Below, one piece after another: positions 8,737 through 38,425 of a DNA stretch of 43,587 nucleotides. A model generated the notes under the pieces. The model made no database searches and was not told the origin of the DNA. It was given only the letters and a program-made list of their open reading frames with translations. The stretch comes from Escherichia phage K1G. Position 1 is the first letter of the stretch, and every line of letters starts with the position of its first letter. The stretch is from the sequence record NC_027993.1; one strand, given 5' to 3'. The translations under genes and the position numbers were made by a program.

Positions 8737-8739
8737 AAA

Positions 8740-9252
8740 GTGTCCTTAACCGTAGAAACAGGTCAAATTATAGAAGGGGCCGATTCGTACATCTCACTGG
8801 CTGACGCCCGCGCGTTAGCGGCTAATTACGGTCTTGAGTTACCTGCCGACGACACTGACGCCGAAGTAGCTCTGCGTAATGGTGCTGCTTATGTCGGGCT
8901 CGCCGAAACGCAGATGTGCGGCCGCCGTGTATCCGCCGAACAGTCTCTGGCGTATCCTCGCACTGGGGTAACGTTAAACGGATTCCCCGTAGCTAACAAC
9001 GTCATCCCGAAGCAGGTAATTCTTGCGCAGGTAATTGCTGCTGTTACCTATGGCGCGGGTACTGAGGTGCGGGCTAACTCAGACGGGCGTTCCGTGCAGA
9101 CTGAGCGTGTCGAGGGTGCGGTGACAGTGACCTACTTCAACAACGGCAACAGCGGGGCTACAACTGCTATTACCGCTGCGGACGACGCTTTACGCCCGTT
9201 ACTGTGTGGCGGTCTTAACAACGGCTTCTCATTTAATGTGTACCGGGGTTAA
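8740..9252 (+). CDS. head-tail connector-region protein (function by position only), GTG start
   Basis: 170-aa ORF between head and tail blocks. Confidence 0.5.
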   Translation: MSLTVETGQIIEGADSYISLADARALAANYGLELPADDTDAEVALRNGAAYVGLAETQMCGRRVSAEQSLAYPRTGVTLNGFPVANNVIPKQVILAQVIAAVTYGAGTEVRANSDGRSVQTERVEGAVTVTYFNNGNSGATTAITAADDALRPLLCGGLNNGFSFNVYRG

Positions 9253-15671: not shown

Positions 15672-17937
15672 TACCGCTAGCTTGATCGTACGAGTATCAT
15701 CGACCGGCGTCGATAAAACCACATCACAACTGAACGGGCTTACCAAAGCCGCGGGGGCCGCCGCCGCTGCCGTTGTCAGTCTGGAAACTGCCAAACAGGT
15801 GTTCAGTGCGCTGGTGGACTCCCAGCGCAACTTCGATAAGCTGAACTCCGGCCTCATCACAATGACCGGGAGCGCCGAGAACGCTGCTAAGGCATTCAGC
15901 GTCCTGCAACAGTTCGCAAAAGAAACTCCGTATGGCCTCAATCAGGCGGTAGAGGGGTTTACCAAGCTCGTGGCGCTAGGTCTTAACCCCAGCAAAGAGG
16001 CGTTAATATCCTACGGCAACACCGCCGCAGCTATGGGCAAAGACCTTAACCAAATGATTGAGGCAGTTGCCGACGCCAGTACATTTGAATTTGAGCGCTT
16101 AAAAGAGTTCGGTATCAAGTCTTCCCAACAGGCGGATACAGTTTCGTTTACGTTCCGTGGCGTAACGACCACGGTTAAAAAGAACTCCGAAGAGATTCAG
16201 AAATACCTGCTAAATATCGGTAACACTGATTTCGCCGGAGCGATGGAGACGCGCTCGAAGACCTTAGATGGTCAGTTATCTAGCCTGGCGGACTCCTTCG
16301 ATGGTCTTGTTCTTGCGGTAGCGCAATCCGGTTTTGGCGACGCGGTAGGCGAACAAGCGGCAACAGCGGAAGATGCTATCACCGCACTCACCGACGCCAT
16401 CGCGTCCAATGAGATCTCCGCCACGCTCCAGGATTGGGTGACACTGTTCAATGAGTCGTTCAAGTTTATTTCTGATGCCCTGAATGACCTGGCATTCGAT
16501 ACCGAGGACAAATCCGTTGATATGTCCGACTCGCTGGGGGATATACCGGATGCCATCCGTGAGTGGTTGCCGGATATCCAGCAGACATTCCACGAGGTTA
16601 TTGCGTGGTTCCAGCGCATTGACGACTACGCGGTAGCGTTAGGCCAGACCCTTGCTGATGTGTTTGACCCGAGCAAAACGTCGGCGCTCACATTTAAAAA
16701 ACTGACTGCAGAGGCTGATGCCGCATACGACGCCAGTATAAAACGTGCAGAGGCCGAATCCCAAGCCATTACCGACAGGTCTAAGCAGCGTAAGAAAGAA
16801 ATTGAGGAACAGCGCAAGCAGTACGACGAGCGTAAGAAGCAAGAAATTGACTTAGCCAGCCTTGTTAATAAAAAGGGCGGAACTGGTGGGGTGGGGACAA
16901 CCGACGATAAAGCAGCAAAAGCCGCCGCCAAGAAAGCAGAGCAATTGCGGAATCAGGCGCAAGATTACCTCGACACTTTGGCCCGTCAGAACAACGACGA
17001 GTTAAAGGCTATCGACGCGCAGGAACAGCAGAAACTGGCTAAGGCAAAAGAGTTCTACAGCCAGGGCGCGTTGTCCCTGAAAGAATATGAACAAGCTAAA
17101 ACAGCTATCGTCCTCGAAGCCGGGCAAAAACGACAAGATGAACTGGATAAACGCCAGAAAGAAGCCCAGGAAAAGCAACAGAAAGGTGACGACTTCATGG
17201 CTCAGATTATGGGCCAGAACGCTACTGAGCTTGAGCTTCTCGACATCCAGGAACAGCAGAAGCTGGCGGTAGCAGATAAGTACCGTGAGCAGGGACTTAT
17301 TAGCGAGAAGCAGTATCAGGCCGCGCTTAACGCCATCAACGAGCAATACGCCACCAAGCGCGCCGACGCAACGGCAACCGCCTTCGGTAACATGGCCTCA
17401 AACATCGGGTCTGCGTTGGGTGAGGCTTCCGGCGCGTACAAAGCATTCGCTATTGTGCAGGCCACTATCGCCACGTACACCGCGGCTATTGAGGCGTACA
17501 AGTCTACGGCGGCTATCCCTGTTGTTGGCCCCTTTCTGGCTCCTGTAGCCGCTGCCGCTGCCGTTGGGGCGGGTATGGCGCAGATTTCCGCTATCAGGTC
17601 AGCACGTGAACAGGGCGGTCAGTTATCCGCGGGGCAGGCTTCTACTATCGCTGAACGTGGTAAACCCGAAGTTATCATGCCCGCTGGCGCATCGCGTGTG
17701 CGCACTGCACAGCAGATGAAAGAAATTATGGGGCAAAACGGGTCTTCCTCCGGCCCATCTAATGTTACCATTGTAAATAATACATCGAGTCAGATTGGCA
17801 ACGTATCCACCGAGCAGGATGATGAAGGCCGTCTGCGTATCATCATAGAAGAGCAAGTTGCTGCATCTTTGCAGAACAGCAACAGTAAGATTAGCAAGGC
17901 CCGCAAGGCCACAAGAAACGCGCCGGGGTTTAAATAA
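15649..17937 (+). CDS. tail tape measure protein
   Basis: 762 aa, Ala/Gln/Glu/Lys-rich coiled-coil, located after G/GT. Confidence 0.8.
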   Translation: MKVEIMADTASLIVRVSSTGVDKTTSQLNGLTKAAGAAAAAVVSLETAKQVFSALVDSQRNFDKLNSGLITMTGSAENAAKAFSVLQQFAKETPYGLNQAVEGFTKLVALGLNPSKEALISYGNTAAAMGKDLNQMIEAVADASTFEFERLKEFGIKSSQQADTVSFTFRGVTTTVKKNSEEIQKYLLNIGNTDFAGAMETRSKTLDGQLSSLADSFDGLVLAVAQSGFGDAVGEQAATAEDAITALTDAIASNEISATLQDWVTLFNESFKFISDALNDLAFDTEDKSVDMSDSLGDIPDAIREWLPDIQQTFHEVIAWFQRIDDYAVALGQTLADVFDPSKTSALTFKKLTAEADAAYDASIKRAEAESQAITDRSKQRKKEIEEQRKQYDERKKQEIDLASLVNKKGGTGGVGTTDDKAAKAAAKKAEQLRNQAQDYLDTLARQNNDELKAIDAQEQQKLAKAKEFYSQGALSLKEYEQAKTAIVLEAGQKRQDELDKRQKEAQEKQQKGDDFMAQIMGQNATELELLDIQEQQKLAVADKYREQGLISEKQYQAALNAINEQYATKRADATATAFGNMASNIGSALGEASGAYKAFAIVQATIATYTAAIEAYKSTAAIPVVGPFLAPVAAAAAVGAGMAQISAIRSAREQGGQLSAGQASTIAERGKPEVIMPAGASRVRTAQQMKEIMGQNGSSSGPSNVTIVNNTSSQIGNVSTEQDDEGRLRIIIEEQVAASLQNSNSKISKARKATRNAPGFK

Positions 17938-18437
17938 TGAGCGACTTATATTTCCCACGTAGCCTTAAGCCGGTGGTGTCGAAAGGCTATTCGATGACCA
18001 GACGCAACAACGTCTGGAGTGTTGATTTAGCTGGCGGCGGTGTACGTCAGGGGCGCGACACGTATTACGACGTGTTCCCGATAAGCGTAACCCTGATTAC
18101 CTCAGCGCTGGGGCGTCAGGCGTTTCTGTCGTTCCTCGAAAAAGTCGATGGTGGTGCGTCAAGTTTCTGGATGGCGCATGACTTCGGCATGGGTATTCAG
18201 GATTACCAAGTAACAATCACGTCAACCATCGCAGAGTCCACAGAAGACGGCATTAACTGGACGATTACTTTCACGGCAACCGCCGAGAAGTCACCGTTCC
18301 AGGACCTTGAGAACCAGTGCCTGATTAACAATCTGCCGGATTTGTTTGGTTGCTATGGTGACGGGCTGGGGTGTTTCCTTAAAGCCTACGGAACCGCGCA
18401 ATCAACGTTTCCACGAATTTGGGACCCGATGCAATGA
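17937..18437 (+). CDS. minor tail protein
   Basis: follows tape measure with TAATG overlap. Confidence 0.55.
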   Translation: MSDLYFPRSLKPVVSKGYSMTRRNNVWSVDLAGGGVRQGRDTYYDVFPISVTLITSALGRQAFLSFLEKVDGGASSFWMAHDFGMGIQDYQVTITSTIAESTEDGINWTITFTATAEKSPFQDLENQCLINNLPDLFGCYGDGLGCFLKAYGTAQSTFPRIWDPMQ

Positions 18438-18949: not shown

Positions 18950-19311
18950 ATATTAACGACTACACGGGCATACCTTACGACTTTCGCAAGCGCAATTGCT
19001 GGCATCACGTGCGCATTGTCCGCGCGGATGCCGGGTTAGAAACCCCGGCGTTCGACGTCACAAGCCCAACGGCAATTAATGAAGCGTTCGACGAAGGACA
19101 TCGCAACACGAAGGGGCTTACGAAAATAGATAAGCCTGAAAACTTCTGTGCGGTGCTTATGGGGTATCGCCGTGGTGGTCGTATCGTGTGGCACGCAGGA
19201 GTATACTTCGACGGGATGGTTAGCCATTGCGAGCTTGCTTCTCGTCAGGTACGGCTTGACAGGCTGGCGGACCTCAGAGACACGTACACGGAGATTGAAT
19301 TTTGGCGATAA
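18946..19311 (+). CDS. tail assembly protein (gpK-like position)
   Basis: 121 aa with conserved Cys/His (RKRNCWHHV ... HAGVYFDGMVSHCE) suggestive of NlpC/P60-like fold. Confidence 0.5.
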   Translation: MNINDYTGIPYDFRKRNCWHHVRIVRADAGLETPAFDVTSPTAINEAFDEGHRNTKGLTKIDKPENFCAVLMGYRRGGRIVWHAGVYFDGMVSHCELASRQVRLDRLADLRDTYTEIEFWR

Positions 19312-21815
19312 TCCTGCACTACACGCGAAACGCTGATGGCGCTTTCGACCGTACAAAACACGTCGGGATGCCGATGGAGTTTGTCGTTAACCGTATCCCG
19401 GACGGCGTGCCGGTGCGCGTCTACCTCGGCGAAATTGGTGATGATACCGACGTAACTGACGACTTCGACGCACTCAAAGACGAAGACGCCGTGTACCACA
19501 TTATAGAGGGTGCTGGTAGCGGGGCGCTTGGTGCCGTTAGTAAGGTGTTCGGTTTTATCCTTAAGCCAATCGCTAAGTTGTTTGGTCTGAACATGTCCGC
19601 AAACGCCAACTATACGGCGACTAACAACCAGACAACATCACCAAATAACAGCCTCACAGACCGCTCAAACAAACCACGCCCTTACGAGCGCTCCTATGAC
19701 ATCTGCGGGACTGTGCAGACAATCCCTAACGACCTGATGCAGACGTATAAAGCGTTCAACTCCACGGGTGCTTTGCTGGAGTATTCGTATTATGACGCGG
19801 GGCGTGGGCATCTGCATATTGAGGCTGATGGCGTAACGGAAGGCGACACCCTGATAAGCGACATCACAGGTTCTTCTGTTGCCGTATACGCGCCGTATAC
19901 CTCCCCGAACAACACCACATCGCCGCAACTACAAATCGGCGACGTCATTGATCAGAAACTCTATGTGACATACTCCAACGACGACGTTGACGGTATTGTG
20001 CTGAAAGCGCCAAACGACATCGGAGCTAACCCAAGCTCCGACGGCACCGCCAAACGTATTTCAAACACCGGCTACATTTATGACCCGTCTGGTGATTCTG
20101 CTTTTTCTGAGTTTCTTAGCGTCGGTGATGTCGCGGTGCTGAGCAACTTTGACGTTGCTGATGTCACTAACCTGAACGGCTCGTTTGAGGTTTTATACGT
20201 TGACGACTTCGAAGTAAGATTAGCGGTAAACGGTGCGTCTAACTGGGCGGCGTTGACCAGCGGGCAGACGTACACGTTAACAGAGCGTTCAGATACGTTT
20301 ATGGGCCCGAGCAACACCTATGACGTATCCCTTACCGACTGGTATTACATGGTGCGCGGAGAAGTTGACCGAGTACTTGCTAACGTTGCCGGGCAGAACG
20401 GCCTCTACAAATACGACGGTGGCTATAATCGCACCAGCGTAACGGTAGAACTCCAGTACCAGATGATTGACTCTCGGCGCAACCCATTGAGCGATATTTA
20501 CACAGTACAGGCTACAATTACCGGTAATAGCACGGATTACGTCGGTACGTCTATCTACGGGCAATTGCCTACTGCATCGCGTTTCCGCGCCCGTATGCGC
20601 CGTATAACGAATTTTGATAAGGACTACAACGGTACAGTAAGCGACGAGATAACCTTCATCAACCTGTACGGGCAGTCGCTGGACACAACCCCACACTACG
20701 GCAACCGAACTACCGTGCATTGCGCACGTAAACAGACGCCGCGTGCCGCCAGTATCGACAACCCAGAACTGCGCATGATTGCGACCGAGATGTGTTACAA
20801 ATACCTCGGCAATGGGGTATTCGATACAGTAATGACGCCTAATACACAGGCGGTGCAGTCGCTAATCAGACTGGCGCGTGACCCGGCGGTTGGTAATCTG
20901 GAGCTGACAACGGCAAACATGGACAAGTTACTTGCTGTGCAGGAAGAGATTGAATCTTATTTTGGCAGCGAATTAGCCGGGCAATTCTGCTACACGTTCG
21001 ACGACTACGACACGACGATGCAGGACATTGTTCAGACCATAGCTGAAGCCGTGTTCTGTACTGCGTACCGTAAAGGCGCGGACATTATGCTGCGTTTCGA
21101 CCGTCCGGTTGCAGGGCCTGAAATGGTGTTCACCCACCGTAGTAAGACGACCGGTACGGAGAAATGGACACGCACGTTCAACGATTCTACGACCTACGAT
21201 AGCCTGTCGTTCTCGTACATCGACCCGGATACGAACGTACAGGAAACGATTTATATCCCGGAAGAACTCGGTGCAAACACTGAGGAGTACGAATCGAAGG
21301 GCGTGCGCAACTATCAGCAGGCGTACTGGCTGGCATGGCGTCGCTACCAGCGCAATGCGTTAAGTAAAGTTGTCGTAGAGTTCGAAGCTACCGAAGAGGG
21401 GGCACTCGCTACACCGGGCGGCGTAATCAGCGTGGTTAAAGGCTCACGCATCGCGCCGCAGGATGGTTATGTTGTTGCCGTTAACGGGCTTACGCTTACG
21501 CTGTCTCAGCCAGTTACGTTTACCCCCGGAGACGACCACTCCATCATCCTCAAGAAGCGCGATGGCTCTGTGCAGAGTATCTCGGTTATCAAAGGAAGCC
21601 ACGACCGCGAGGTGATTATGCTCTCCGCGCCGGAAGAAGCAATCTACACGGGGAATAGCGCGCTAAAAACTGAGTTTTCATTCGGCAACGAAGCAAGGCA
21701 TAATGCTCAGAAGATAGTTGTTTCTTCAATCGACCCGGGCGACGACCGCACGGTCAAGATTACTGGCTACAACTATGACGACGGATTCTATAAATACGAC
21801 GGCGTCGCGCCATAA
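19302..21815 (+). CDS. tail tip / central tail fibre protein (gpJ-like); start uncertain
   Basis: 837-aa ORF between tail assembly genes and tailspike. Confidence 0.65.
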   Translation: MAIILHYTRNADGAFDRTKHVGMPMEFVVNRIPDGVPVRVYLGEIGDDTDVTDDFDALKDEDAVYHIIEGAGSGALGAVSKVFGFILKPIAKLFGLNMSANANYTATNNQTTSPNNSLTDRSNKPRPYERSYDICGTVQTIPNDLMQTYKAFNSTGALLEYSYYDAGRGHLHIEADGVTEGDTLISDITGSSVAVYAPYTSPNNTTSPQLQIGDVIDQKLYVTYSNDDVDGIVLKAPNDIGANPSSDGTAKRISNTGYIYDPSGDSAFSEFLSVGDVAVLSNFDVADVTNLNGSFEVLYVDDFEVRLAVNGASNWAALTSGQTYTLTERSDTFMGPSNTYDVSLTDWYYMVRGEVDRVLANVAGQNGLYKYDGGYNRTSVTVELQYQMIDSRRNPLSDIYTVQATITGNSTDYVGTSIYGQLPTASRFRARMRRITNFDKDYNGTVSDEITFINLYGQSLDTTPHYGNRTTVHCARKQTPRAASIDNPELRMIATEMCYKYLGNGVFDTVMTPNTQAVQSLIRLARDPAVGNLELTTANMDKLLAVQEEIESYFGSELAGQFCYTFDDYDTTMQDIVQTIAEAVFCTAYRKGADIMLRFDRPVAGPEMVFTHRSKTTGTEKWTRTFNDSTTYDSLSFSYIDPDTNVQETIYIPEELGANTEEYESKGVRNYQQAYWLAWRRYQRNALSKVVVEFEATEEGALATPGGVISVVKGSRIAPQDGYVVAVNGLTLTLSQPVTFTPGDDHSIILKKRDGSVQSISVIKGSHDREVIMLSAPEEAIYTGNSALKTEFSFGNEARHNAQKIVVSSIDPGDDRTVKITGYNYDDGFYKYDGVAP

Positions 21816-21869
21816 GGCAGCGGTTTCTCCGATGGATTCAGCAATGGTTTTAATTAAAGAGGACTCTAT

Positions 21870-24824
21870 ATGTCAAGCGGATGTGGTGACGTTTTAAGCC
21901 TGGCGGATTTACAGACCGCCAAGAAGCACCAGATTTTTGAAGCCGAGGTTATCACGGGTAAATCCGGCGGAGTAGCCGGGGGCGCAGATATTGATTACGC
22001 GACAAACCAGGTTACAGGGCAGACCCAGAAGACACTACCTGCCGTGTTGCGTGACGCTGGTTTTAAACTGGCAGATTTTGATTTCACGTCAGGCGGTACA
22101 CTATCCGCTAACGACCGAAACACCGCAGTTTTGTGGCCGTCGTCCTCTGGCGGTGACGGGGATTGGTACTATTGGTTGGGTGCTCTACCAAAAATTATCC
22201 CGGCGTCATCTTCTCCGCAGTCCACCGGTGGCGTGGCAGATGGGGCGTGGCAGCCTGTCGGGTCGGTCATACTGCGGCAGCAAATATCTGATGTAAACGG
22301 TGCAATTCTGTACCCAGATTTACATGTGGCGCGATGGAAGGACGAATACGACCCGCGCGCATGGGGCGCCGTGGGCGACGGCGTAACTGATGATACTCAA
22401 TCTATTTTTAATGTATTAGCAGCTTCCCCCAACAATTGGATTATAGACGGCAGGGGTTTGACTTATAAAGTTTCCCAATTACCTGACATTAGTAAATTTA
22501 AGAATGCTGCATTCGTTTACGAGCGCGTAGCCGGGCAACCGCTTACTTATGTAGCTGATGGCTTCTTTAACGGTTCACTAACTAAGGTGACGGATACCCC
22601 GTTCTACAACGCATGGACGCAGGATAAAACTTTCGTCTACGACCATGTTATTTACGCCCCGTTTATGGCGGGCGAACGACATGGTGTTCAAAACTTACAT
22701 GTAGCTTGGGTTCGCTCTGGAGACGACGGGCAGACTTGGTCAATGCCTGAGTGGTTGACTCCAATCCATGCTGACTATAATGCTAGTGTTTCTACGGACA
22801 GAGTTAACTACCACTGCATGAGCATGGGTACGTGCGGCAACCGATTATATGCAGTTATAGAAACCCGCTACTTATCTAATATGCGGATGAAGAAGGCAGA
22901 ACTTTGGTCACGCCCAATGCCGTATTTTAGACACCCAACCGGCGGAATAACTATTAGTTCTGGCTCCACTACTGCTACCATTGTCATAGAAAATCATGGC
23001 CTAAAAGCAGGAGATGCGGTTAACTTCTCTAATACATCGGCAACTGGCGTATCGGGTAATATGACGGTTTCGTCTATAATTAACCGAAATACGTTCACTG
23101 TTACGCTCTCAAGCCCGGCGAGTTCCACCATAAACAATGCGGGTGTTACCTGGAACTTCGCAACGCGATTCTGGGACAGCCCGTGGGAAATTACCGAATT
23201 GCCTGGGGTAGCATACTCCACTAACGCTGATTTGTGTGTCACGGAGACACATAGTTTTGCGGTTATAGATGATGTTAACTACACTATCGCTGTCGGCTAT
23301 CACAACGGCGATGTGTCCCCTAGGCGTCTCGGTGTCTTGTATTTTAGTAACGTGTATGACAATCCTGGCGTATTCGTTCGTCGCACTGTCGCTCAGGCAT
23401 ACGCTGATAACGCTTCTGAGCCGTGCGTGAAAAGTTATGGTGGTGTGTTATACCTTACCACACGCGGCACATTACCTACTTCCCCTGGCTCTACACTGGC
23501 GATGAGCACCGATTCTGGGCAAAACTGGAGCTACTTGCGATTTCCGAACAATGTACATCACTCCAATCTTCCGTTCGCTAAAGTAGGTGACTATCTCTAC
23601 ATCTTTGGTACAGAACGTGCCTTTGGTGAGTGGGAAGGTGGCGAGCAGGACAGCCGCTATGAAGGTTCGTATCCGAGGACCTTTATGTGCAAAGTTAATG
23701 TGTCGTCCTGGCCTTCATCTTTAGATGATGTTCAGTGGTTTAATATTACCGACCAAATATACCAGGGTCATATCGTTAACTCTGCTGTCGGCGTCGGCTC
23801 GGTCTGTGTTAAAGATGGCTGGTTGTACTATATCTTTGGTGGGGAAGACTTCTTCTCTCCCTGGAGCATAGGGGATAACAGTGCGAAGTTATGGTACAAA
23901 CATGATGGGCATCCGGCTGACTTATATAGCTACCGGATAAAGATTGAAGACCACCCGTACGTATCACGTGATTTCAAATACGGAGCAACTCCTAACCGTA
24001 CAATACCTGTCGCCATGGGGGTAGATGGTGTACGCCATGTAGAAGCACCTTTAACGTTTGACAATGATGTAAGCGTGTACTCCCTGCATGTAACGGGGCT
24101 GGAATACGATGGTACACAACAGTCTGCCGTGCGCGCACGGTTTGATGGTGATTACGGGCTGATTTCAAAAACAGTCCCCACTAAAACCCCATCGGCTCAA
24201 AGACTGATAGTTAGCGGTGGTGATGGCGCATCCAGTTCCGATGGTGCGTTGCTGCAACTGTACGGGGCAAACCATGCAACGCCTAACAGGGCTATTATGT
24301 ATGCGTCAGGAGGCTTCTACTCATACAACAATTTCCTTCCTTACTTAGACTCGCAAGTGTCTTTAGGTTCGGCAGGTAATAGGTGGACTACGGTGTACGC
24401 GACCACCGGTACGATAAACACGTCTGATGGTACACTTAAGACGAACAAAGAGGAAATTGAGGGACAACTCCTTACCGCATGGGAAGATATACATGTAATA
24501 TCTTTTAAGTGGCTTGAAAGCCTAGCAATCAAGGGTGACACTGCAAGGATACACTTCGGTGTGATAGCCCAAGATGTGCGAGACATCTTGGTCAACCATG
24601 GGCTTATGGAGAAAGATTCTACCAGTTGTAAATATGCTTTCTTGTGCTACGACTCAATTGAAGCTGCGTATGATATTGATGAAGATGGCCAGACTGTACA
24701 AGTATCCCCTCCCGGCGGCAGATGGGGAGTTAGGGCGGACCAGATGTTCTTCATAGAGATTGCCTATCAGCGTAAGAAGATGCGCGAGTTCGAGAAGAGG
24801 CTGGCAGCACTAGAAGATAAATAA
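21870..24824 (+). CDS. endosialidase tailspike (endo-N-acetylneuraminidase) with C-terminal intramolecular chaperone domain
   Basis: 984 aa; Asp-box motifs SGDDGQTW and STDSGQNW; long stretches matching recalled K1F-type endosialidase (e.g. GDGVTDDT, NYHCMSMG, HNVHHSNLPFAKVGD, ARIHFGVIAQDVRD); RBS AAAGAGGA. Confidence 0.85.
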   Translation: MSSGCGDVLSLADLQTAKKHQIFEAEVITGKSGGVAGGADIDYATNQVTGQTQKTLPAVLRDAGFKLADFDFTSGGTLSANDRNTAVLWPSSSGGDGDWYYWLGALPKIIPASSSPQSTGGVADGAWQPVGSVILRQQISDVNGAILYPDLHVARWKDEYDPRAWGAVGDGVTDDTQSIFNVLAASPNNWIIDGRGLTYKVSQLPDISKFKNAAFVYERVAGQPLTYVADGFFNGSLTKVTDTPFYNAWTQDKTFVYDHVIYAPFMAGERHGVQNLHVAWVRSGDDGQTWSMPEWLTPIHADYNASVSTDRVNYHCMSMGTCGNRLYAVIETRYLSNMRMKKAELWSRPMPYFRHPTGGITISSGSTTATIVIENHGLKAGDAVNFSNTSATGVSGNMTVSSIINRNTFTVTLSSPASSTINNAGVTWNFATRFWDSPWEITELPGVAYSTNADLCVTETHSFAVIDDVNYTIAVGYHNGDVSPRRLGVLYFSNVYDNPGVFVRRTVAQAYADNASEPCVKSYGGVLYLTTRGTLPTSPGSTLAMSTDSGQNWSYLRFPNNVHHSNLPFAKVGDYLYIFGTERAFGEWEGGEQDSRYEGSYPRTFMCKVNVSSWPSSLDDVQWFNITDQIYQGHIVNSAVGVGSVCVKDGWLYYIFGGEDFFSPWSIGDNSAKLWYKHDGHPADLYSYRIKIEDHPYVSRDFKYGATPNRTIPVAMGVDGVRHVEAPLTFDNDVSVYSLHVTGLEYDGTQQSAVRARFDGDYGLISKTVPTKTPSAQRLIVSGGDGASSSDGALLQLYGANHATPNRAIMYASGGFYSYNNFLPYLDSQVSLGSAGNRWTTVYATTGTINTSDGTLKTNKEEIEGQLLTAWEDIHVISFKWLESLAIKGDTARIHFGVIAQDVRDILVNHGLMEKDSTSCKYAFLCYDSIEAAYDIDEDGQTVQVSPPGGRWGVRADQMFFIEIAYQRKKMREFEKRLAALEDK

Positions 24825-24828
24825 AACT

Positions 24829-24854
24829 AAGGCCCCAAACGGGGCCTTTTCTCT
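24829..24854 (+). terminator. rho-independent terminator (convergent junction, bidirectional)
   Basis: AAGGCCCC-AAAC-GGGGCCTT hairpin then TTCTCT. Confidence 0.7.
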
Positions 24855-25172: not shown

Positions 25173-26593
25173 TTCTTACCTCGTCTCTTCATATAATTAA
25201 GCAACTCTTCTTGCACAGATTTCTTTTCGTCAGTACGCGCGGCGACAACCTCGTCCAGCGTGTCTTTAGCAACGATGTGGTACAGGAACACCGGCCTCTC
25301 GTGTCCTGCCTGTTTCTGGCGGACCGGGCCTATTCGCTCGACAACCTGCAAATAGTGCTCAAGGTTCCAGCCTTGCGAGATGAATGCCAGATGATGTCCG
25401 CCGTCCTGTAAATTCAAACCATGTCCGGCCGACGCAGGATGCACGCATAAGATTTCGATTTCGCCGCGGTTCCATGCTTCCATCTGCTTATTACCCTTAG
25501 CACCTTTCGCGAATGCCTGCGCCTGCGGGAAACGTTTCAGGATACGCTCCAGTTCGTGCTTGAACTGATAGGCTACCAGTAGCGGAGCACCCTGTAACTC
25601 CTCAACAATTGACTCCAGCGCATCCAGTTTCATGTCGTGCACTTTCTCCCAGTCTTTGGTTGCTTCTCCGTCTGGCCCTGATACATACACAGCACCAGAA
25701 GCAATCTGCAAACACTTTGACGTCTTTGCCGCGGCGTTAGCCGCTTCAACTTCTCCGCTTTCCAGTTCCGCGAATAACTTTTCCTCCATATCGATGTACG
25801 CCTGACGCGCTTTCTTCGGCAGATCTATTTCAACCGGCACTATAATAGGCGCTTCACAACCGAACCACTCAGCGGCGTCAATCGTGAGACTAATGTCCTT
25901 CATCTTCTGGTGGATCTCATTATCTGCACCAGGACGCGCATGATACTCCCGCGCCATCGCCGACTTACCTTTTTGCACAGAGTTGAACCAGCGGTCGGTG
26001 AACGCAGTGTACGATGAACCGAGGCGCTCGCCAGCGTCGATAAACCAGTTCTGGCCCCACAGGTCTTTGAGGCCGTTAGGCGACGGTGTGCCCGTCAGAT
26101 TGATGAAACGCTTAACTTTACCGAACGCCACTTTGCTGAGCGCCTTTGCCCGCTTGCTACCACCAGAACGGCTACGGAATGACTTCAGTTTCGTACTCTC
26201 ATCTGCAACGATAACCGTAAAAGGCCAGTCGTCTTTGCCGTAGTAGTCAATCAGCCACTCGATAACTTCGTAGTTGGTACACACCACGTTAACATCTGAC
26301 TCCAGCGCCGCGATGCGGCGTTTCTCTGAACCTGTCGCATCTACGACACGCAGGCACGGGAATCGCCATTTCTCTTGTTCTGCCGGCCATGTACCTGATG
26401 CAACGCGCAACGGGGCGAGAATTAACACGCGGTCGTCGTCCGTAAGTTGCCCGTTGCGGAACAGGCGGTTTAAAGTCCACAGGACGCTGCCAGTCTTCCC
26501 GGCGCCCATGCTCGCCCAAATATTACAGCGATGGTGTTGCAGCATGAACGAAGTCATGAGCTTCTGGTATTCGCGCCTTTGAAACTTACTCAT
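25169..26593 (-). CDS. SNF2-family DNA helicase/ATPase
   Basis: motif I GAGKTG, motif II DESTKL, LTGTP; 474 aa. Confidence 0.8.
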   Translation of the reverse strand: MSKFQRREYQKLMTSFMLQHHRCNIWASMGAGKTGSVLWTLNRLFRNGQLTDDDRVLILAPLRVASGTWPAEQEKWRFPCLRVVDATGSEKRRIAALESDVNVVCTNYEVIEWLIDYYGKDDWPFTVIVADESTKLKSFRSRSGGSKRAKALSKVAFGKVKRFINLTGTPSPNGLKDLWGQNWFIDAGERLGSSYTAFTDRWFNSVQKGKSAMAREYHARPGADNEIHQKMKDISLTIDAAEWFGCEAPIIVPVEIDLPKKARQAYIDMEEKLFAELESGEVEAANAAAKTSKCLQIASGAVYVSGPDGEATKDWEKVHDMKLDALESIVEELQGAPLLVAYQFKHELERILKRFPQAQAFAKGAKGNKQMEAWNRGEIEILCVHPASAGHGLNLQDGGHHLAFISQGWNLEHYLQVVERIGPVRQKQAGHERPVFLYHIVAKDTLDEVVAARTDEKKSVQEELLNYMKRRGKK

Positions 26594-27410
26594 TTACGGC
26601 CCCCATAAACGCCTTTATAAATTCGGCGGCTACTTGCGGGACGATGGCATTGCCGTAACCGCGCAATCGTCCCACTCTTGCGGGTATCCCATTAGCCAGC
26701 GGGAATGCGCCGGGTTCAACCGGCCGGAACTTTCCATCACGGCATCCGAGCCAGTCAGCATCTGACCAGAAGCCGTGGTGCGGGTTGGTTGACTCGCTTT
26801 CAATCCCTGCTCTGTTGAGTAGTCCAGCCTGTCGAATGTTCTGTCCCTCCCGTCCGTGCGAATCACTGTCTCTCCGCTCCCTCTGAAGTCGTTCGCTGTC
26901 GGTGTAGGCCAGTTCGTGCGCGCCAAAGAAGAGTCGTTCTCTTTTGTGCGGTGCGCCGACGCTACAAGCTGGGAGTACAGCAAACCCGACGGCGTAGTCT
27001 TCTCCTTCCAGGTGAGCTTGTAAATCGCACATCCACGATTTTGCAATTGCTGCCGCAACCTGCTCCCCAAAGATGACTGGAGGGCGGCACTCGCTGATGA
27101 GGTCGAGGAAGACCGGCGCGAGGTGTCTCGGGTCGAACTGTCCGAGTTGCTTTCCCGCCGCGCTAAACGGTTGGCAAGGCGGGCTTCCCGTCCAGAGAGG
27201 CGCATCTTCCGGAACTCCCGCAAGTCTGAGCGCGAGAGGCCAGCCGCCGATACCCGCGAAAAAATGACACTGGGTGAACCCGTCAAGGTCTTCTGGCTTA
27301 ACTTCGGTAATGCTTCTTTCATCTACAACTCCAAAAGGTATGTGACCCTGTTTTATCAACTCACGCAGCCACGCGGCTGCGCCTTTATCCCATTCATTGT
27401 AATAGTTCAT
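26586..27410 (-). CDS. DNA (cytosine-5)-methyltransferase
   Basis: motif I FFAGIGGW, motif [19 protein letters not shown] (ENV-like), C-terminal GYGNAIVP. Confidence 0.8.
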
Positions 27411-33854: not shown

Positions 33855-36118
33855 TCCAAATCCTCCTCTGTCACTGTCAGCATCTCATTCGGTTCATATA
33901 TTGTCTTCGGAATCTTGTTATCAGTTATCCGGGTGTTCAGCCTGTAACGGCCAGGGATTATCTGATTGTTTTCGTCAGTCCCCGGAACAAGATACCCAGC
34001 CTCAACCATTTTCTTAATCTTCCCGCGTTCTATGGCTTCTTTGGAGTTAAACGCCTTTGCATTGGGGTCAGACTGTGCGAGCTTATTAGCGGCGGCGACT
34101 GTGATGCCTTCGTTGCCGTTGTAGGTTCCTTCCGCCAGTTCAAACGCCGCCAGTATCGTGGCTTCTGAACTGTTGACGGCGTTCTCTATGGTTTTACGTA
34201 CGTTTTCTTTACCTTCTTTCGTCAACCCTTCTTCCCGCTCTTTCTCCTCGTCAGTCTTGAACGGCTCGAAACCCCACGGCATTAACACAAGTGCCTTATG
34301 CGGCTCCGGCAGGTCTAGGTTTACGATTGTGCCGTATTCCTCCGTGCTACCGAGGAACTCAACCGCACGGTACTCTTTCGGCGGCGGCGCTTCACGGAAC
34401 TGTACAGACTCCAGCACCATACCAACCGTCTTCTGTTGAGGCCCGTGCTTGAATTTCGAGTGGTATACATTTATCTGGCGGTCGGTAGCTCGTTCGATTG
34501 TCAGTTCCACGTCGACGCCAGCATACAGCGCCCCACTGCCACGGGCTTTCTTTCCGCCCTTCGGCGTATGGTGGACAACGCCTACCGCAGCTTTAGTCGC
34601 GTCACGTACTTCTTTCAGGATGGCGATAACCTTACCCATGCCGATTGCCGTTGATGAACTGTTCTCGTCGAACTTATCAATCGTCAGGGCTAGCGTCTGG
34701 TTGAGGGTGTCGAACGCAACCATGCCGATGGGTTCGTCACCCGCAGTTTCACGCATCAACTTAATCAGGCTTTTCAGTTTTCCGACTTCGCCCATGTCGA
34801 TGACATGTACATAATCTTTACCTTCCTCGCTATACTTAGCTGCGAGCGCATCGATACGGGTGCGTGTAGCTGCGCCGCCCTCACCGTCGATATAAAAATG
34901 GTGGCAACGCTGCGTATCTGCCCCCGCAAACCGGTATCCGGCGGCGCTCAGGTACATCATCCCCAGCGTATAGAACGATTTGTACGTGCCGGATTCCCCG
35001 ACAATATCCCAGATACAATCTGACGGCATGTACCCTTCAACGACGAAATCCGCCTTTACCGGTTCCGGTAACTCGTCATCCTCTGAGTCCTCGTCATCTT
35101 CCAGGTCGTCGAGGCTGCATGAAACAGATTCACGTGCACCCCATCCGATGGCCTCTGCGACTTCACTGAACGGCAGCCCCGTCGCATCGCACGCATACTT
35201 CCACACCTCTTTCGGTGACATGCCTTCGGTCGCCGTAATGTCAGTGTCGTGAATCATGGTTACGTTCGGCGCCTCATATCCCTCTCGCGGGAAGCACAGC
35301 AGGAAGTCATCCGGGCGCGGCGTCGGGTCGCTGTAGTTTTCTGCGTGTTCTGGCGTAGCTGGCATCTTAAGGCCTCGTGGCGTCATGATACCGCCATACT
35401 CGAACGCCAGTGCCTCGAACGCGTCGGTAAACGCGGTGCGCAGTTCTTCCGGTATCTGGTAATCCGATGCGCTGCTAACGTCAACGGCGGGGATGCCTTC
35501 CAGTAACTCGTCCGGGTCAATCAGGTCGTTGCGGCGTGACCAGATAACGGTAGAGCCAACCGGAGGCAGGTACATCGGTTGCGAAAGAGTGAACCCGCTG
35601 CGGTCAGCACCCATGCTTTTGAAGAAGTGTTCCAGCAATCCATGGCGAACACGGATGATGTCACCACCTTCGACCGGACGGGCCAGCGGCATGACGACGC
35701 GAAAGCGCGGGGACTCGTCGGTATGTGATGCCGTGGTATAGATACACATGCCCCGGCGGCTGCGTTTAACTAAGCGCACCGCTTCCTGATACTCTTCTGG
35801 TGTTGCGCTGTCGAAGTCCAGATACGCCAGCGACGATTTGCTTACAGACGCGTCACAGCGATAGAAAAAGCCTTTACGCGCTTGCTTAAAGTCGCCGGTT
35901 TCCGGGTCTTTTACAGTGCTGTGCGTCGAGTCGCACGCGGCGGTGATATAACCGGGCGCGGTCTTCGGGTTAATTCCGTCACGGACAGCATCGAGTGGCT
36001 GGATTAACTCTTTCAGGTCGTCCAGTGTTGCCGTGTGTGTGGTTCTGACGTTTATATCCTTTTTCTCAGCCCGCGCGTTGCGACGCGACCACGAGTAGGA
36101 TAAAATTACATCGGACAT
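33851..36118 (-). CDS. DNA primase/helicase (RecA-fold ATPase)
   Basis: 755 aa; Walker A-like GESGTYKSF, large N-terminal domain; RBS GAAGGAAA. Confidence 0.7.
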   Translation of the reverse strand: MSDVILSYSWSRRNARAEKKDINVRTTHTATLDDLKELIQPLDAVRDGINPKTAPGYITAACDSTHSTVKDPETGDFKQARKGFFYRCDASVSKSSLAYLDFDSATPEEYQEAVRLVKRSRRGMCIYTTASHTDESPRFRVVMPLARPVEGGDIIRVRHGLLEHFFKSMGADRSGFTLSQPMYLPPVGSTVIWSRRNDLIDPDELLEGIPAVDVSSASDYQIPEELRTAFTDAFEALAFEYGGIMTPRGLKMPATPEHAENYSDPTPRPDDFLLCFPREGYEAPNVTMIHDTDITATEGMSPKEVWKYACDATGLPFSEVAEAIGWGARESVSCSLDDLEDDEDSEDDELPEPVKADFVVEGYMPSDCIWDIVGESGTYKSFYTLGMMYLSAAGYRFAGADTQRCHHFYIDGEGGAATRTRIDALAAKYSEEGKDYVHVIDMGEVGKLKSLIKLMRETAGDEPIGMVAFDTLNQTLALTIDKFDENSSSTAIGMGKVIAILKEVRDATKAAVGVVHHTPKGGKKARGSGALYAGVDVELTIERATDRQINVYHSKFKHGPQQKTVGMVLESVQFREAPPPKEYRAVEFLGSTEEYGTIVNLDLPEPHKALVLMPWGFEPFKTDEEKEREEGLTKEGKENVRKTIENAVNSSEATILAAFELAEGTYNGNEGITVAAANKLAQSDPNAKAFNSKEAIERGKIKKMVEAGYLVPGTDENNQIIPGRYRLNTRITDNKIPKTIYEPNEMLTVTEEDLE

Positions 36119-36176
36119 GTTATATTTCCTTCAGCAAGTAATTTGGCCTCGGCGTTCACCGCGTCGGGGCTTTCTT

Positions 36177-36452
36177 TTATTCCAGGTCGCGGGAGATATT
36201 ACCCTCGGGCACCAACACTTTTCCAATACTTCTCGCTTTCTCTGTAATAGGCGTCGCTCTTGTTGCCCGATAAAACTTTCCTTTATTAAGAATCTCACCA
36301 TGTCGCTCGAGCACATCTAAAGCATGTTTGATCGGGTTTACACCGTAATTATCCAACCGGTATCTCCGAAGCCCGTCTACCGTAAAAGCGCCGTTCGCTT
36401 CGGTCAGTCTGCGTGCACACATTAATATGTGTTTCTGGAATTTAGTTAGCAT
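36177..36452 (-). CDS. hypothetical protein
   Basis: ATG at 36452 with RBS AAGGAG; overlaps 3' end of upstream HTH gene. Confidence 0.45.
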   Translation of the reverse strand: MLTKFQKHILMCARRLTEANGAFTVDGLRRYRLDNYGVNPIKHALDVLERHGEILNKGKFYRATRATPITEKARSIGKVLVPEGNISRDLE

Positions 36453-36621
36453 CTTTAACGTTCTCCTTAATCCACGCCTCCACAGTAGCGCGGTCAAAGG
36501 TACCTGGCTGACGGTAGCCGTTGATAACGCGGCAACACTCCGGGAACTTTCCTGACCGAAGCCAGCGATTAAGAGTCATAGGGGAAACCCCGATTAAGTC
36601 TGCTACTTCTTTCTGTGTCAT
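36442..36621 (-). CDS. AlpA/Xis-like HTH DNA-binding protein
   Basis: MTQKEVADLIGVSPMTLNRWLRSGKFP; ATG at 36621 with RBS GAGGG (track ORF begins at TTG 36651). Confidence 0.6.
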   Translation of the reverse strand: MTQKEVADLIGVSPMTLNRWLRSGKFPECCRVINGYRQPGTFDRATVEAWIKENVKDAN

Positions 36622-36778
36622 TTTACGCGCCCTCTCTATCAAGTGAAACAACTATAACACCTACAATAGACAAACACAACCTATTGACAAAATAAAATGT
36701 AGCTGTAAAATCAACGTATCGAATGGCTTTAGTTAAGAATTACTTAGAAACAATATTCTTAAGTCTCGGGTACTTAAA

Positions 36779-36798
36779 GCCCCGCCATAAAGCGGGGC
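36779..36798 (-). promoter_or_regulatory. leader hairpin, reverse-orientation copy of the 4618-4637 hairpin
   Basis: GCCCCGC-CATAAA-GCGGGGC on + strand equals reverse complement of the spanin leader hairpin. Confidence 0.35.
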
Positions 36799-37042
36799 GC
36801 TAAATAGTACTCTTGGTAACGTTAGTATCTAAGTTTCCTCAAAGTAACAGCAAGTGGCAAGAAAGCCCCCGTCTATTTAAATTTTACCCTCCTTCATAAG
36901 CCACTGATAATTAAAAGTTTCTATAGTTGCCGTAAACGTGGAAGAGAGTACTTCACTTCGCTGGGGTGGGCTAACGCCCACCCACTGCGTTGCGTACTCT
37001 TTTAAGAAACGAAAGAATCACAACGGCAACGTAACTATTCTC

Positions 37043-37071
37043 TTGCACACCCCAACATAATAGGATACTAT
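37043..37071 (+). promoter_or_regulatory. early promoter TTGCAC-N17-TACTAT (family 2)
   Basis: cTTGCACaccccaacatAATAGGATACTATTcac. Confidence 0.5.
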
Positions 37072-37096
37072 TCACTTATCGAAACGAGACAGAGGA

Positions 37097-37297
37097 GTGA
37101 GGGTTATGTTTAAACGTGGTCAGTTGGTTAAATACTCCGACGATAAACACGGCATAATTGAATTAAAATCTGCTTTATTTCCAGGAAAGTACGTAGTTAC
37201 CGTGCAAAATGTGAGAGGAGTAAATTCACAAATATACGTAGCGGAGGAGAACTTAAAACTCATCGGCAACAATTTTAAATTTAAAGGGGGAGGGTGA
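37097..37297 (+). CDS. hypothetical early protein
   Basis: 66 aa, RBS GAGGAGTGAGGG. Confidence 0.5.
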   Translation: MRVMFKRGQLVKYSDDKHGIIELKSALFPGKYVVTVQNVRGVNSQIYVAEENLKLIGNNFKFKGGG

Positions 37298-37301
37298 AGT
37301 G

Positions 37302-37502
37302 ATGGAAGAATTATTTGAAGAACTGAAACATCATGATTTCGAGGAAATATATTTCGTAGCTGAACGCTACGAGGTGCATCTGGCGGACGGTATAACGGTT
37401 ATTACATCTACCAGCGAGCGAATGTTAAATAGCTTACGAGCAATACGAACGGCATCGAATCATGATGCTTGTGCCGACGACGCTGAGGGAGGTTGCCGTT
37501 AA
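37302..37502 (+). CDS. hypothetical early protein
   Basis: 66 aa from ATG 37302, RBS GGGGGAGGG. Confidence 0.5.
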   Translation: MEELFEELKHHDFEEIYFVAERYEVHLADGITVITSTSERMLNSLRAIRTASNHDACADDAEGGCR

Positions 37503-37705
37503 TGCGAATCCGTATAACTGACCGCAGGCTTATCCGTATAACTGACCGCAGGCTTATCCGTATAACTGACCGCAGGCTTATAGATTTCGGTATCTCGGTA
37601 GGTGATGTTTTTCCGGCGTTCAGCATCAACCATTATGGTTTTATGATTGAGTACAAAGGGTCGTTATTGTTCGTGTATCGGGATGAATGTGAGGTTCTGG
37701 TATGA
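37502..37705 (+). CDS. small protein containing three RITDRRLI repeats
   Basis: ATG overlaps upstream stop (TAATG), RBS GAGGGAGG; 3 x 24 bp tandem repeat is in frame. Confidence 0.4.
   Translation: MRIRITDRRLIRITDRRLIRITDRRLIDFGISVGDVFPAFSINHYGFMIEYKGSLLFVYRDECEVLV
37510..37581 (+). repeat. perfect tandem direct repeat, 3 x 24 bp (CCGTATAACTGACCGCAGGCTTAT)
   Basis: three identical consecutive 24-mers read directly. Confidence 0.9.
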
Positions 37706-37857
37706 GAGAAGCATTTGAACGGTGGGCTGTGGTCGAGGGTCTGCCGGTTAACAAGGGTTCAAAGAAAGAGTACCTGAACGTTAAGACGCGTCTCGCGTGG
37801 CGGGCGTGGAAAGCTGGTGTGCAATCCTTGATTGAAAGAGGTGTGAGGTATGGGTGA
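37702..37857 (+). CDS. small hypothetical protein (51 aa)
   Basis: ATGA overlap with upstream gene; sequence MREAFERWAVVEGLPVNKGSKKEYLNVKTRLAWRAWKAG... Confidence 0.4.
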   Translation: MREAFERWAVVEGLPVNKGSKKEYLNVKTRLAWRAWKAGVQSLIERGVRYG

Positions 37858-38050
37858 GTGGATTAAGTGTAGTGAGATGCTGCCGGGTAATGGGTATACG
37901 GATAAAGAGTTCCTGGTGTATGAAACGTTAAATAACGCAGTTCAGCACGATTATTACATAGTTCCTGATGACGGGAGAAAGCCTTTCTGGAATCACTACG
38001 ATAAGTACGTGACGCACTGGATGCCGTTACCCGAGCCGCCAGAAGTGTGA
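37850..38050 (+). CDS. DUF551-like protein
   Basis: N-terminus MGEWIKCSEMLPGNG resembles DUF551 proteins (W-I...LP motif). Confidence 0.5.
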   Translation: MGEWIKCSEMLPGNGYTDKEFLVYETLNNAVQHDYYIVPDDGRKPFWNHYDKYVTHWMPLPEPPEV

Positions 38051-38184
38051 TGTTCAATAGTTTGGGATTTTACTGAGTGACTTACGCTGCTACACAGCAG
38101 CGTACAACTTTAACTTAGTGTCGTCAAAAGGCGACACTTTCATCAAACGCAACAATCGAAGCGACTATTGCAGGAGATGCAACA

Positions 38185-38358: not shown

Positions 38359-38365
38359 AATTTAC

Positions 38366-38394: not shown

Positions 38395-38425
38395 TCATTT
38401 ACACAAACGAGAGGAGAGACGGAAG

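What the first reader, a model, noticed from the sequence alone, without database searches (positions are those of the whole stretch)
21870..24824. Tailspike is an endosialidase, implying K1 polysialic-acid capsule specificity
The 984-aa protein carries two Asp-boxes (SGDDGQTW, STDSGQNW) and many segments matching recalled K1-phage endosialidase sequence, including the C-terminal auto-processing chaperone region (ARIHFGVIAQDVRD...YQRKKMREFEKRLAALE). This predicts a host range restricted to polysialic-acid-encapsulated strains such as E. coli K1.
Basis: partly seen in the sequence, partly recalled or inferred. Interest (0 to 1): 0.5.

Follow-up and report, generated by a model that had tools for sequence, protein, structure and literature searches.

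The report
Known K1G phage endosialidase tailspike

Summary
The observation and its interpretation both hold, and the feature is already known. Window 21870..24824 (+) is one 984-aa ORF. It matches all four Pfam endosialidase domains (beta-propeller E 2.5e-223) and the C-terminal Peptidase_S74 chaperone domain. It aligns to the solved endosialidases of phages phi92 (79% identity over the catalytic part) and K1F (54%). Every K1F residue reported as catalytic or functionally critical is conserved. So is the Ser/Lys autocleavage dyad, here T851|S852...K857.

An exact-sequence look-up identifies the protein as ADA82273.1, "tailspike 63D sialidase [Escherichia phage K1G]". It lies on a 43,587-bp contig, which is the window's own length, so the window is very probably the complete K1G genome.

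The K1H enzyme is 97.4% identical. Published work shows it is processed to 93 kDa (92.9 kDa predicted here), forms trimers, degrades K1 capsule in vitro and rescues mice. Sibling phages ULINTec2 and JSSK01 are restricted to K1 strains but infect only some of them. The enzyme is therefore necessary for host range, not sufficient.

Comparison with phage K1ind1 shows a swapped cassette from about nt 22040 to 24840, behind a shared anchor of about 57 aa.

Novelty: none. Interest: low.

The parts
21856..21863 (+). Ribosome-binding site AAAGAGGA (GAGG core 21859-21862), 7 nt before the ATG
   Evidence: Read directly from the sequence. The start is the same one annotated in K1H, 63D and K1ind1.
21870..24824 (+). 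Tailspike endosialidase precursor gene: 984 aa, 108.0 kDa, stop codon included
   Evidence: ORF; Pfam; PDB. The exact sequence is ADA82273.1, the phage K1G tailspike 63D sialidase.
21870..22040 (+). N-terminal virion anchor, about aa 1-57. It is shared with non-sialidase tailspikes of the same phage genus.
   Evidence: 59 of 60 aa are identical to the K1ind1 tailspike, whose C-terminal part is annotated as HK620-like. DNA identity falls from at least 85% to about 65% after nt ~22040. Megablast finds only the first 250-393 nt in other Kagunavirus and Salmonella phage tailspikes.
22041..22364 (+). Linker / Tail_spike_N-like neck, aa 58-165 (PF18668 match at aa 97-131)
   Evidence: Pfam PF18668 E 1e-13. 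PDB 9vvr, 4oj5 and 8x8m match this stretch. Residues 91-165 are 58% identical to K1F but only 37% identical to phi92.
22368..22568 (+). Endosialidase N-terminal extension domain, aa 167-233
   Evidence: PF12218 E 7.4e-38, matching profile positions 1-67 of 67.
22569..23948 (+). Catalytic six-bladed beta-propeller, aa 234-693. It carries H271, R485, E517, R532 and R583, which correspond to K1F H350, R549, E581, R596 and R647.
   Evidence: PF12217 E 2.5e-223, profile 1-367 of 367. The list of critical residues comes from PMC12632334.
22716..22739 (+). Asp-box 1, SGDDGQTW (aa 283-290)
   Evidence: Regex S.D.G..W. The same motif is seen in K1F and phi92 in the printed alignment.
22920..23168 (+). 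Beta-barrel polysialic-acid-binding domain nested inside the propeller, aa 351-433
   Evidence: PF12195 E 5.6e-41, profile 1-83 of 83.
23505..23528 (+). Asp-box 2, STDSGQNW (aa 546-553)
   Evidence: Regex. It aligns to SRDIGQTW of K1F endoNF.
23949..24422 (+). Stalk (triple-beta-helix / tail-spike) domain, aa 694-851. It ends at the predicted mature C-terminus, T851.
   Evidence: PF12219 E 2.2e-75. The 4hiz chain ends at the equivalent ...TGTINT. The phi92 mat_peptide boundary maps to query 851|852.
24423..24821 (+). C-terminal intramolecular chaperone / autoprotease domain, aa 852-984, 15.2 kDa. The dyad is S852 and K857. The domain is released after trimer assembly.
   Evidence: PF13884 E 8e-13. 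3gw6 matches at E 9e-56. K1F S911 maps to S852 and K916 to K857. The mechanism is described in PMC3828593. Masses were computed.
24829..24848 (.). GC-rich hairpin AAGGCCCC-AAAC-GGGGCCTT, lying 5 nt after the stop. It is a probable bidirectional terminator between the convergent tailspike gene and the minus-strand replication block.
   Evidence: The terminator scan called it on the minus strand only. On the plus strand it is followed by TTCTCT. It also marks the 3' edge of the swapped cassette, since identity to K1ind1 resumes at about 24816-24840.
19302..21815 (+). Context: TipJ-family host-specificity (central tail fibre) protein immediately upstream. It is the probable binder of the secondary receptor under the capsule.
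   Evidence: NCBIfam NF040662 E 9.4e-114; phrog_469 E 9e-255.

Best explanation
This gene encodes the single tailspike of the siphovirus K1G (genus Kagunavirus). The protein is an endo-alpha-2,8-sialidase of glycoside hydrolase family 58.

Inferred from homologues, not tested here:
- The 108-kDa precursor trimerises with the help of its C-terminal 133-residue chaperone domain.
- That domain then cuts itself off between T851 and S852, using the S852/K857 dyad, and leaves a 92.9-kDa mature spike.
- The first ~57 residues fix the spike to the tail tip.
- The beta-propeller, with H271, R485, E517, R532 and R583, binds and cleaves the polysialic-acid K1 capsule.
- This lets the virion tunnel to the outer membrane, where the neighbouring TipJ-family protein probably engages a second receptor.

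Shown here:
- The domain architecture.
- Conservation of every tested critical residue.
- Exact identity to the published K1G protein.
- The boundaries of the exchangeable cassette.

Consequence: infection depends on a polysialic-acid capsule, but not every K1 strain is susceptible.
For: Domain architecture: all four Pfam endosialidase domains match in full, and Peptidase_S74 is present.

Solved relatives: phi92 endoN92 (4hiz) scores 1306 bits and is 79% identical over aa 166-851. K1F endoNF scores E ~1e-229 and is 54% identical. The K1F chaperone domain 3gw6 scores E 9e-56.

Critical residues: all 11 K1F catalytic or critical residues are conserved, as are T910|S911 and K916. The residue lists come from PMC12632334 and PMC3828593.

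Identity: the exact-sequence look-up returns ADA82273.1 / YP_009168811.1, tailspike 63D sialidase of Escherichia phage K1G, on a 43,587-bp contig. The protein is 98.0% identical to the 63D endo-N-acetylneuraminidase AB015437 and 97.4% identical to K1H.

Experiments on relatives: the K1H enzyme migrates at 93 kDa after proteolysis, is trimeric, degrades K1 capsule and rescues mice. The predicted mature mass here is 92.9 kDa. Hosts of the 96-99% DNA matches include O18:K1:H7 and other K1-typed strains, with most listed only as E. coli. ULINTec2 and JSSK01 have K1-restricted host ranges.

No second tailspike: the tail proteins scanned against PHROGs (minor tail/tube, tape measure, three small tail-tip proteins, TipJ) show no other tailspike, and the remaining ORFs of 110 aa or more were listed but not all scanned.
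Against: Nothing in the sequence argues against this explanation.

- No enzymology or plating was or could be done here on this exact protein.
- Two K1F stalk positions that I recalled from memory as sialic-acid-binding (K410, Q853) are not conserved (N337, L794). Q853 is L in the active phi92 enzyme too; phi92 was not mapped at K410.
- The residue after the cleavage serine is D853, not the N912 of K1F. Phi92, which is annotated as processed, also has D.
- A review reports the 63D enzyme as a homotetramer (PMC5380687), whereas K1H is a trimer.
Confidence: 0.97

Rival explanations
1. The tailspike is an active endosialidase, but its substrate range, and possibly the phage's host range, also covers the K92 capsule (alternating alpha-2,8/alpha-2,9 polysialic acid). 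This would mirror its nearest solved relative, phi92 endoN92, rather than being K1-only.
For: The catalytic part is 79% identical to endoN92 but only 54% identical to K1F endoNF. The phi92 record annotates endoN92 as depolymerising both poly-alpha-2,8 and poly-(alpha-2,8-alpha-2,9)-sialic acid. The query shares L794 with phi92, where K1F has Q853.
Against: Every host recorded with a capsule type for phages carrying this 63D-type spike is a K1 strain. JSSK01's recombinant enzyme distinguished K1 strains from K1-related ones. Infecting K92 strains would also need a compatible secondary receptor. Phi92's broad range comes from several different spikes.
Confidence: 0.3
2. The endosialidase alone does not set the host range. 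It is required, but susceptibility within K1 strains is decided by other factors, such as the TipJ secondary receptor, capsule O-acetylation or phase variation, and host defences. 'K1 specificity' would then over-predict the host range.
For: ULINTec2, whose tailspike DNA is 98.2% identical, plated productively on about half of the listed K1 strains. JSSK01 infected 16 of 27 strains that were K1-positive by PCR. A TipJ-family host-specificity protein lies immediately upstream.
Against: It does not contradict it. Some JSSK01-resistant strains may have been mis-typed as K1.
Confidence: 0.85
3. The protein is a catalytically dead tailspike that only binds polysialic acid, or it degrades a different glycan.
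For: None was found. The possibility was considered because binding-only endosialidase variants are used as detection reagents (PMC5380687).
Against: All catalytic residues are conserved. The K1H enzyme, 97.4% identical, is active on K1 capsule. The weak colanic-acid spike match (phrog_8280, E 1.8e-8) is dwarfed by phrog_1171 at E 5.5e-292. The BNR_2 exo-sialidase match is below threshold, at 14.9 against 31.4 bits.
Confidence: 0.01

Closest known systems
Escherichia phage K1G tailspike '63D sialidase' (ADA82273.1 / YP_009168811.1; genome 43,587 bp)
   Same: It is identical over all 984 residues, and its contig length equals the window length. The published 97.76% identity between the JSSK01 and K1G spikes is reproduced exactly as 962/984.
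   Different: Nothing. This is the same protein.
Coliphage 63D endo-N-acetylneuraminidase (AB015437, BAA32990.1) and the phage K1H tailspike (ADA82322.1)
   Same: All three are 984 aa. Identity is 98.0% to 63D and 97.4% to K1H. The start codon, domains and gene neighbourhood are the same. The K1H enzyme has been shown to process to 93 kDa, to trimerise and to degrade K1 capsule.
   Different: There are 20 substitutions against 63D and 26 against K1H. None is at a tested critical residue. K1H carries a cluster of 8 changes in aa 109-142.
Phage phi92 endosialidase endoN92 (PDB 4HIZ; gp143)
   Same: The catalytic part (aa 166-851) is 79% identical and the chaperone domain 71% identical. The cleavage context TINT|SDGTLKT is the same.
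   Different: The N-terminal attachment region is unrelated, since phi92 is a myovirus with several spikes. Phi92 was isolated on K92, and its enzyme is annotated as also cleaving the K92 polymer.
Phage K1F endoNF (PDB 1V0E, 3GVL, 3GW6), the reference GH58 enzyme
   Same: The domain order is the same, and identity is 54% over the catalytic part. The conserved features are H350, R549, E581, R596, R647, the S911/K916 dyad and two Asp-boxes.
   Different: K1F has a T7-type N-terminal capsid-binding domain and a longer chaperone domain with insertions. K410 and Q853 are not conserved here, and N912 is D.
Phage K1ind1 tailspike (ADA82374.1), the K1-independent sibling
   Same: The first ~57-60 aa are the same (59/60), as are the upstream TipJ gene, the ribosome-binding site and the downstream terminator region.
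   Different: Beyond about nt 22040 the gene is replaced by a module annotated as HK620-like, giving a 721-aa protein with no endosialidase and no S74 domain.

Membership tests
GH58 phage endosialidase (endo-N-acetylneuraminidase) | Six-bladed beta-propeller catalytic domain | tested here: met
   PF12217 E 2.5e-223 at aa 234-693, covering profile positions 1-367 of 367. It aligns end to end with 4hiz and 1v0e.
GH58 phage endosialidase (endo-N-acetylneuraminidase) | Beta-barrel domain inserted in the propeller, with an N-terminal extension and a C-terminal stalk domain | tested here: met
   PF12195 at aa 351-433 (E 5.6e-41), PF12218 at aa 167-233 (E 7.4e-38) and PF12219 at aa 694-851 (E 2.2e-75).
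GH58 phage endosialidase (endo-N-acetylneuraminidase) | Catalytic and critical residues of endoNF: H350, R549, E581, R596 and R647, plus Q330, D331, H527, S528, K585 and N699 | tested here: met
   All are conserved, as H271, R485, E517, R532, R583, Q251, D252, H461, S462, K521 and N637. The residue list is from PMC12632334.
GH58 phage endosialidase (endo-N-acetylneuraminidase) | Two Asp-boxes and no FRIP motif (from my knowledge of the family) | tested here: met
   S.D.G..W occurs at aa 283-290 and 546-553 only. There is no [FY]R[IVL]P motif.
GH58 phage endosialidase (endo-N-acetylneuraminidase) | Hydrolysis of alpha-2,8-linked polysialic acid | not testable with these tools
   This is inferred. 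The K1H enzyme, 97.4% identical, degrades K1 capsule in vitro (PMC5696595). Recombinant JSSK01 enzyme, 97.76% identical, strips capsule and gives halos.
Peptidase S74 / C-terminal intramolecular chaperone domain | Domain homology at the C-terminus of a trimeric fibre or spike | tested here: met
   PF13884 E 8e-13 at aa 852-912. 3gw6 matches at E 9e-56, and 3gud, 4uw8 and 7y5s also match.
Peptidase S74 / C-terminal intramolecular chaperone domain | Ser-Lys catalytic dyad at the domain boundary (endoNF S911/K916), with cleavage N-terminal to the Ser | tested here: met
   S852 and K857 align with S911 and K916, and T851 aligns with T910. The phi92 mat_peptide boundary maps to 851|852. The mechanism is described in PMC3828593.
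Peptidase S74 / C-terminal intramolecular chaperone domain | Actual autoproteolytic release of the domain | not testable with these tools
   The predicted mature mass is 92.9 kDa. This agrees with the 93 kDa observed for the processed K1H enzyme.
Kagunavirus modular tailspike | Conserved N-terminal anchor shared by spikes with unrelated catalytic modules, encoded directly after the TipJ-family gene | tested here: met
   59 of 60 aa are identical with the K1ind1 spike, then the sequences diverge. DNA breakpoints lie at about 22040 and about 24840. TipJ lies upstream.
GH33-type exo-sialidase (BNR/Asp-box neuraminidase) | Match to the BNR sialidase profile above threshold, and a FRIP motif | tested here: not met
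   BNR_2 scores 14.9 bits against a cut-off of 31.4. There is no FRIP-like motif. The protein is not filed under this family.

The most novel reading that the evidence does not exclude
The 63D/K1G-type endosialidase is much closer to phi92 endoN92 than to K1F endoNF. It may therefore also depolymerise the K92 alternating alpha-2,8/alpha-2,9 polymer. That would give Kagunavirus K1-dependent phages a latent K92 host range. Separately, the tetramer reported for the 63D enzyme and the trimer reported for K1H might reflect a real difference in assembly.
Probability: 0.25. Interest if true: 0.2.

Novelty: already known. Interest (0 to 1): 0.07.

Why it matters
It matters little as a discovery. The gene, its product name, its phage and its K1 dependence have been on public record since the K1G and K1H genomes were deposited. 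Near-identical enzymes have been purified and used therapeutically in mice.

The result is still useful as a positive control for the scan. A reader working from raw sequence correctly called the gene boundaries, the enzyme family, the Asp-boxes and the autoprocessing domain.

Practically, such spikes are of interest for phage therapy of K1 meningitis and urinary isolates, and as reagents for detecting polysialic acid. The cleanly bounded cassette (about nt 22040-24840) behind a 57-aa anchor illustrates how host range is swapped within one phage genus.

Tried and rejected
- NCBIfam has no model that hits the tailspike (0 families). This reflects a gap in that library and is not evidence against the call.
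- The primary K1G/K1H paper (Bull et al. 2010; DOI and PMC2843586) and Jakobsson et al. 2007 (PMC2267309) are not held. I therefore relied on later open papers that cite them.
- The exact-sequence look-up failed twice for technical reasons before succeeding.
- I did not run structure prediction, fold search or the large homology searches. A crystal structure at 79% identity and an exact database match already answer the question, so the cost was not justified.
- Inactive binding-only spike: rejected because all catalytic residues are conserved.
- Exo-sialidase (GH33): rejected because BNR_2 is below threshold and there is no FRIP motif.
- A second tailspike that would broaden host range: none among the tail proteins scanned against PHROGs/NCBIfam; the remaining ORFs of 110 aa or more were listed but not all scanned.
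- Residues K410 and Q853 of K1F, which I recalled from memory as substrate-binding, are not conserved. Phi92, an active enzyme, also has L at Q853 (it was not mapped at K410), so I give this no weight.
Full report
**Observation**

Window 21870..24824 on the + strand is a single ATG-initiated ORF of 984 codons. An AAAGAGGA ribosome-binding site ends 7 nt before the ATG. A GC-rich hairpin (24829-24848) lies 5 nt after the stop.

- SGDDGQTW at aa 283-290
- STDSGQNW at aa 546-553
- ARIHFGVIAQDVRD at aa 892
- YQRKKMREFEKRLAALE at aa 966

The two Asp-boxes are the only S.D.G..W matches in the protein.

**What it is**

Pfam places the complete endosialidase architecture on the protein:

| Domain | Residues | E-value |
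|---|---|---|
| End_N_terminal | 167-233 | 7.4e-38 |
| End_beta_propel (full profile) | 234-693 | 2.5e-223 |
| End_beta_barrel (nested in the propeller) | 351-433 | 5.6e-41 |
| End_tail_spike | 694-851 | 2.2e-75 |
| Peptidase_S74 | 852-912 | 8e-13 |
| Tail_spike_N-like neck | 97-131 | 1e-13 |

The exo-sialidase profile BNR_2 is below threshold at 14.9 against 31.4 bits. There is no FRIP-like motif.

Against solved structures, the best match is the phi92 endosialidase 4hiz at 1306 bits, covering aa 166-851. The K1F endoNF structures 1v0e and 3gvl follow at E ~1e-229. The K1F chaperone-domain structure 3gw6 matches aa 756-984 at E 9e-56.

Global alignments give these identities:
- 79% to phi92 over the catalytic part, and 71% over the chaperone domain
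- 54% to K1F over the catalytic part, and 49% over the chaperone domain
- 98.0% to the 63D endo-N-acetylneuraminidase (AB015437)
- 97.4% to the K1H tailspike

**Residue-level tests**

A deep mutational scan of the K1F spike names H350, R549, E581, R596 and R647 as catalytic. It names Q330, D331, H527, S528, K585 and N699 as critical (PMC12632334). All eleven are conserved here, as H271, R485, E517, R532, R583, Q251, D252, H461, S462, K521 and N637.

The chaperone domain of endoNF cleaves itself N-terminal to S911 using K916 as the base (PMC3828593). Here T851|S852 and K857 align with T910|S911 and K916. The annotated phi92 mature-peptide boundary maps to the same bond. The predicted products are 92.9 kDa and 15.2 kDa.

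**Identity of the sequence**

An exact-sequence look-up finds this protein as ADA82273.1 / YP_009168811.1 / UniRef100_D2XJ95, "tailspike 63D sialidase [Escherichia phage K1G]". It lies on a contig of 43,587 bp, which is the window's length.

Two independent results agree with this:
- The JSSK01 spike is 962/984 = 97.76% identical to the query. That is exactly the figure published for JSSK01 against K1G (PMC11641727).
- The flanks match Kagunavirus genomes. The left arm is 92.8% identical to K1ind1 and the right arm 97.0% identical to K1H.

The window is therefore very probably the complete genome of phage K1G, the type phage of the genus. The K1G record itself did not appear among the phage-collection hits.

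**Mechanism**

The following steps are inferred from homologues:
- The precursor trimerises with the help of the C-terminal domain.
- That domain then excises itself.
- The mature spike is held on the tail tip by its N-terminal anchor.
- The propeller binds and cleaves alpha-2,8 polysialic acid, so the virion can cross the K1 capsule.

The gene immediately upstream (19302..21815) is a TipJ-family host-specificity protein (NF040662 E 9.4e-114; phrog_469). It is the likely binder of a secondary receptor. The tail proteins scanned against PHROGs and NCBIfam include no second tailspike, though not every ORF of 110 aa or more was scanned.

Published experiments on near-identical proteins support each step:
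- Recombinant K1H enzyme migrates at 93 kDa "after proteolysis", is mostly trimeric, degrades K1 capsule and rescues infected mice (PMC5696595).
- Recombinant JSSK01 enzyme strips capsule, gives halos and agglutinates K1 strains specifically.
- ULINTec2, a Kagunavirus with 98.2% tailspike DNA identity, is K1-dependent.

**Modularity**

The K1-independent sibling K1ind1 has the same TipJ gene, ribosome-binding site and first ~57-60 tailspike codons (59/60 aa). From about nt 22040 the genes diverge. Its spike is annotated "N-term similar to 63D and C-term similar to HK620 Tsp". Similarity resumes at about nt 24816-24840, at the terminator hairpin.

Other Kagunavirus and Salmonella phage spikes share only the first 250-393 nt. 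The same catalytic module occurs in podoviruses (K1F, K1E, K1-5), myoviruses (phi92, phAPEC8) and, more distantly, Mannheimia phages. This is the textbook picture of horizontal exchange of endosialidase cassettes (review PMC5380687).

The endosialidase makes the capsule a requirement, but it does not guarantee infection. ULINTec2 plated productively on about half of the listed K1 strains. JSSK01 infected 16 of 27 strains typed as K1 by PCR.

The enzyme's closest solved relative is annotated as also cleaving the K92 polymer. K92 activity is therefore untested rather than excluded.

A review lists the 63D enzyme as a tetramer, in conflict with the K1H trimer.

**Verdict**

- Observation: confirmed.
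- Interpretation: supported.
- Novelty: none, since the exact protein is already annotated and its family is experimentally characterised.
- Interest: low. The case works well as a positive control for the first-stage reader.

Noticed in passing
window 26586..27410 (-) and 26630..27322 (-): A fully nested, out-of-frame gene pair lies on the same strand. The 274-aa ORF is a C5 DNA methylase (PF00145 E 5e-17, phrog_363 E 1.5e-88). The 230-aa ORF inside it, in another frame, matches a different family annotated as DNA methyltransferase (phrog_1008 E 2e-55, no Pfam hit). Both frames are annotated in K1H, as 'C-specific methylase' and 'Mte8-like'. That both frames have strong family support over ~690 nt is unusual, though already annotated.
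   Followed up: partly
window 7932..8796 (ORF 7987..8736, +): An insertion of about 0.8 kb relative to K1ind1 lies inside the head/tail structural module. It carries a homing endonuclease ORF (phrog_655 E 1.8e-55). Local G+C is low, at 0.46 for 8-9 kb.
   Followed up: partly
window 21813..21815: The TipJ-family gene ends at a TAA where K1H and K1ind1 have TAC (Tyr). This single C-to-A nonsense change removes the last 14 residues (YGSGFSDGFSNGFN) in this genome. The protein is 837 aa against 851 aa. Whether this is a laboratory adaptation or a natural variant is unknown.
   Followed up: partly
window 17937..18437 (+): The gene after the tape-measure gene encodes 166 aa here, identical to the K1H version. 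K1ind1 encodes 466 aa, because about 0.96 kb present there is absent here. Among the three phages compared, the C-terminal extension goes with the non-sialidase spike. It may be a carbohydrate-binding extension of a distal-tail-like protein. This was not tested.
   Followed up: partly
window 24829..24848: A GC-rich hairpin sits between the convergent tailspike gene and the minus-strand replication genes. It is a probable bidirectional terminator, although the scan called it on the minus strand only. It coincides with the 3' recombination boundary of the tailspike cassette.
   Followed up: partly
window 36000..38600: This is the stretch of lowest G+C (0.44-0.45). GC skew reverses sharply from -0.11 to +0.23 at about 37 kb, and there is no ORF of 110 aa or more between 36118 and 38611. 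It is probably the divergent early/regulatory region where gene orientation switches.
   Followed up: no
whole window: There are no tRNA or tmRNA genes. The window length equals the K1G genome length, and position 1 is the start of the terminase gene, as in the K1ind1 record.
   Followed up: yes
window 22194..22295 (aa 109-142 of the tailspike): K1H differs from this protein at 8 clustered positions in the neck region (89% identity over aa 91-165), while 63D is 97% identical there. This suggests a small recombination patch within the otherwise 97-98% identical genes.
   Followed up: no
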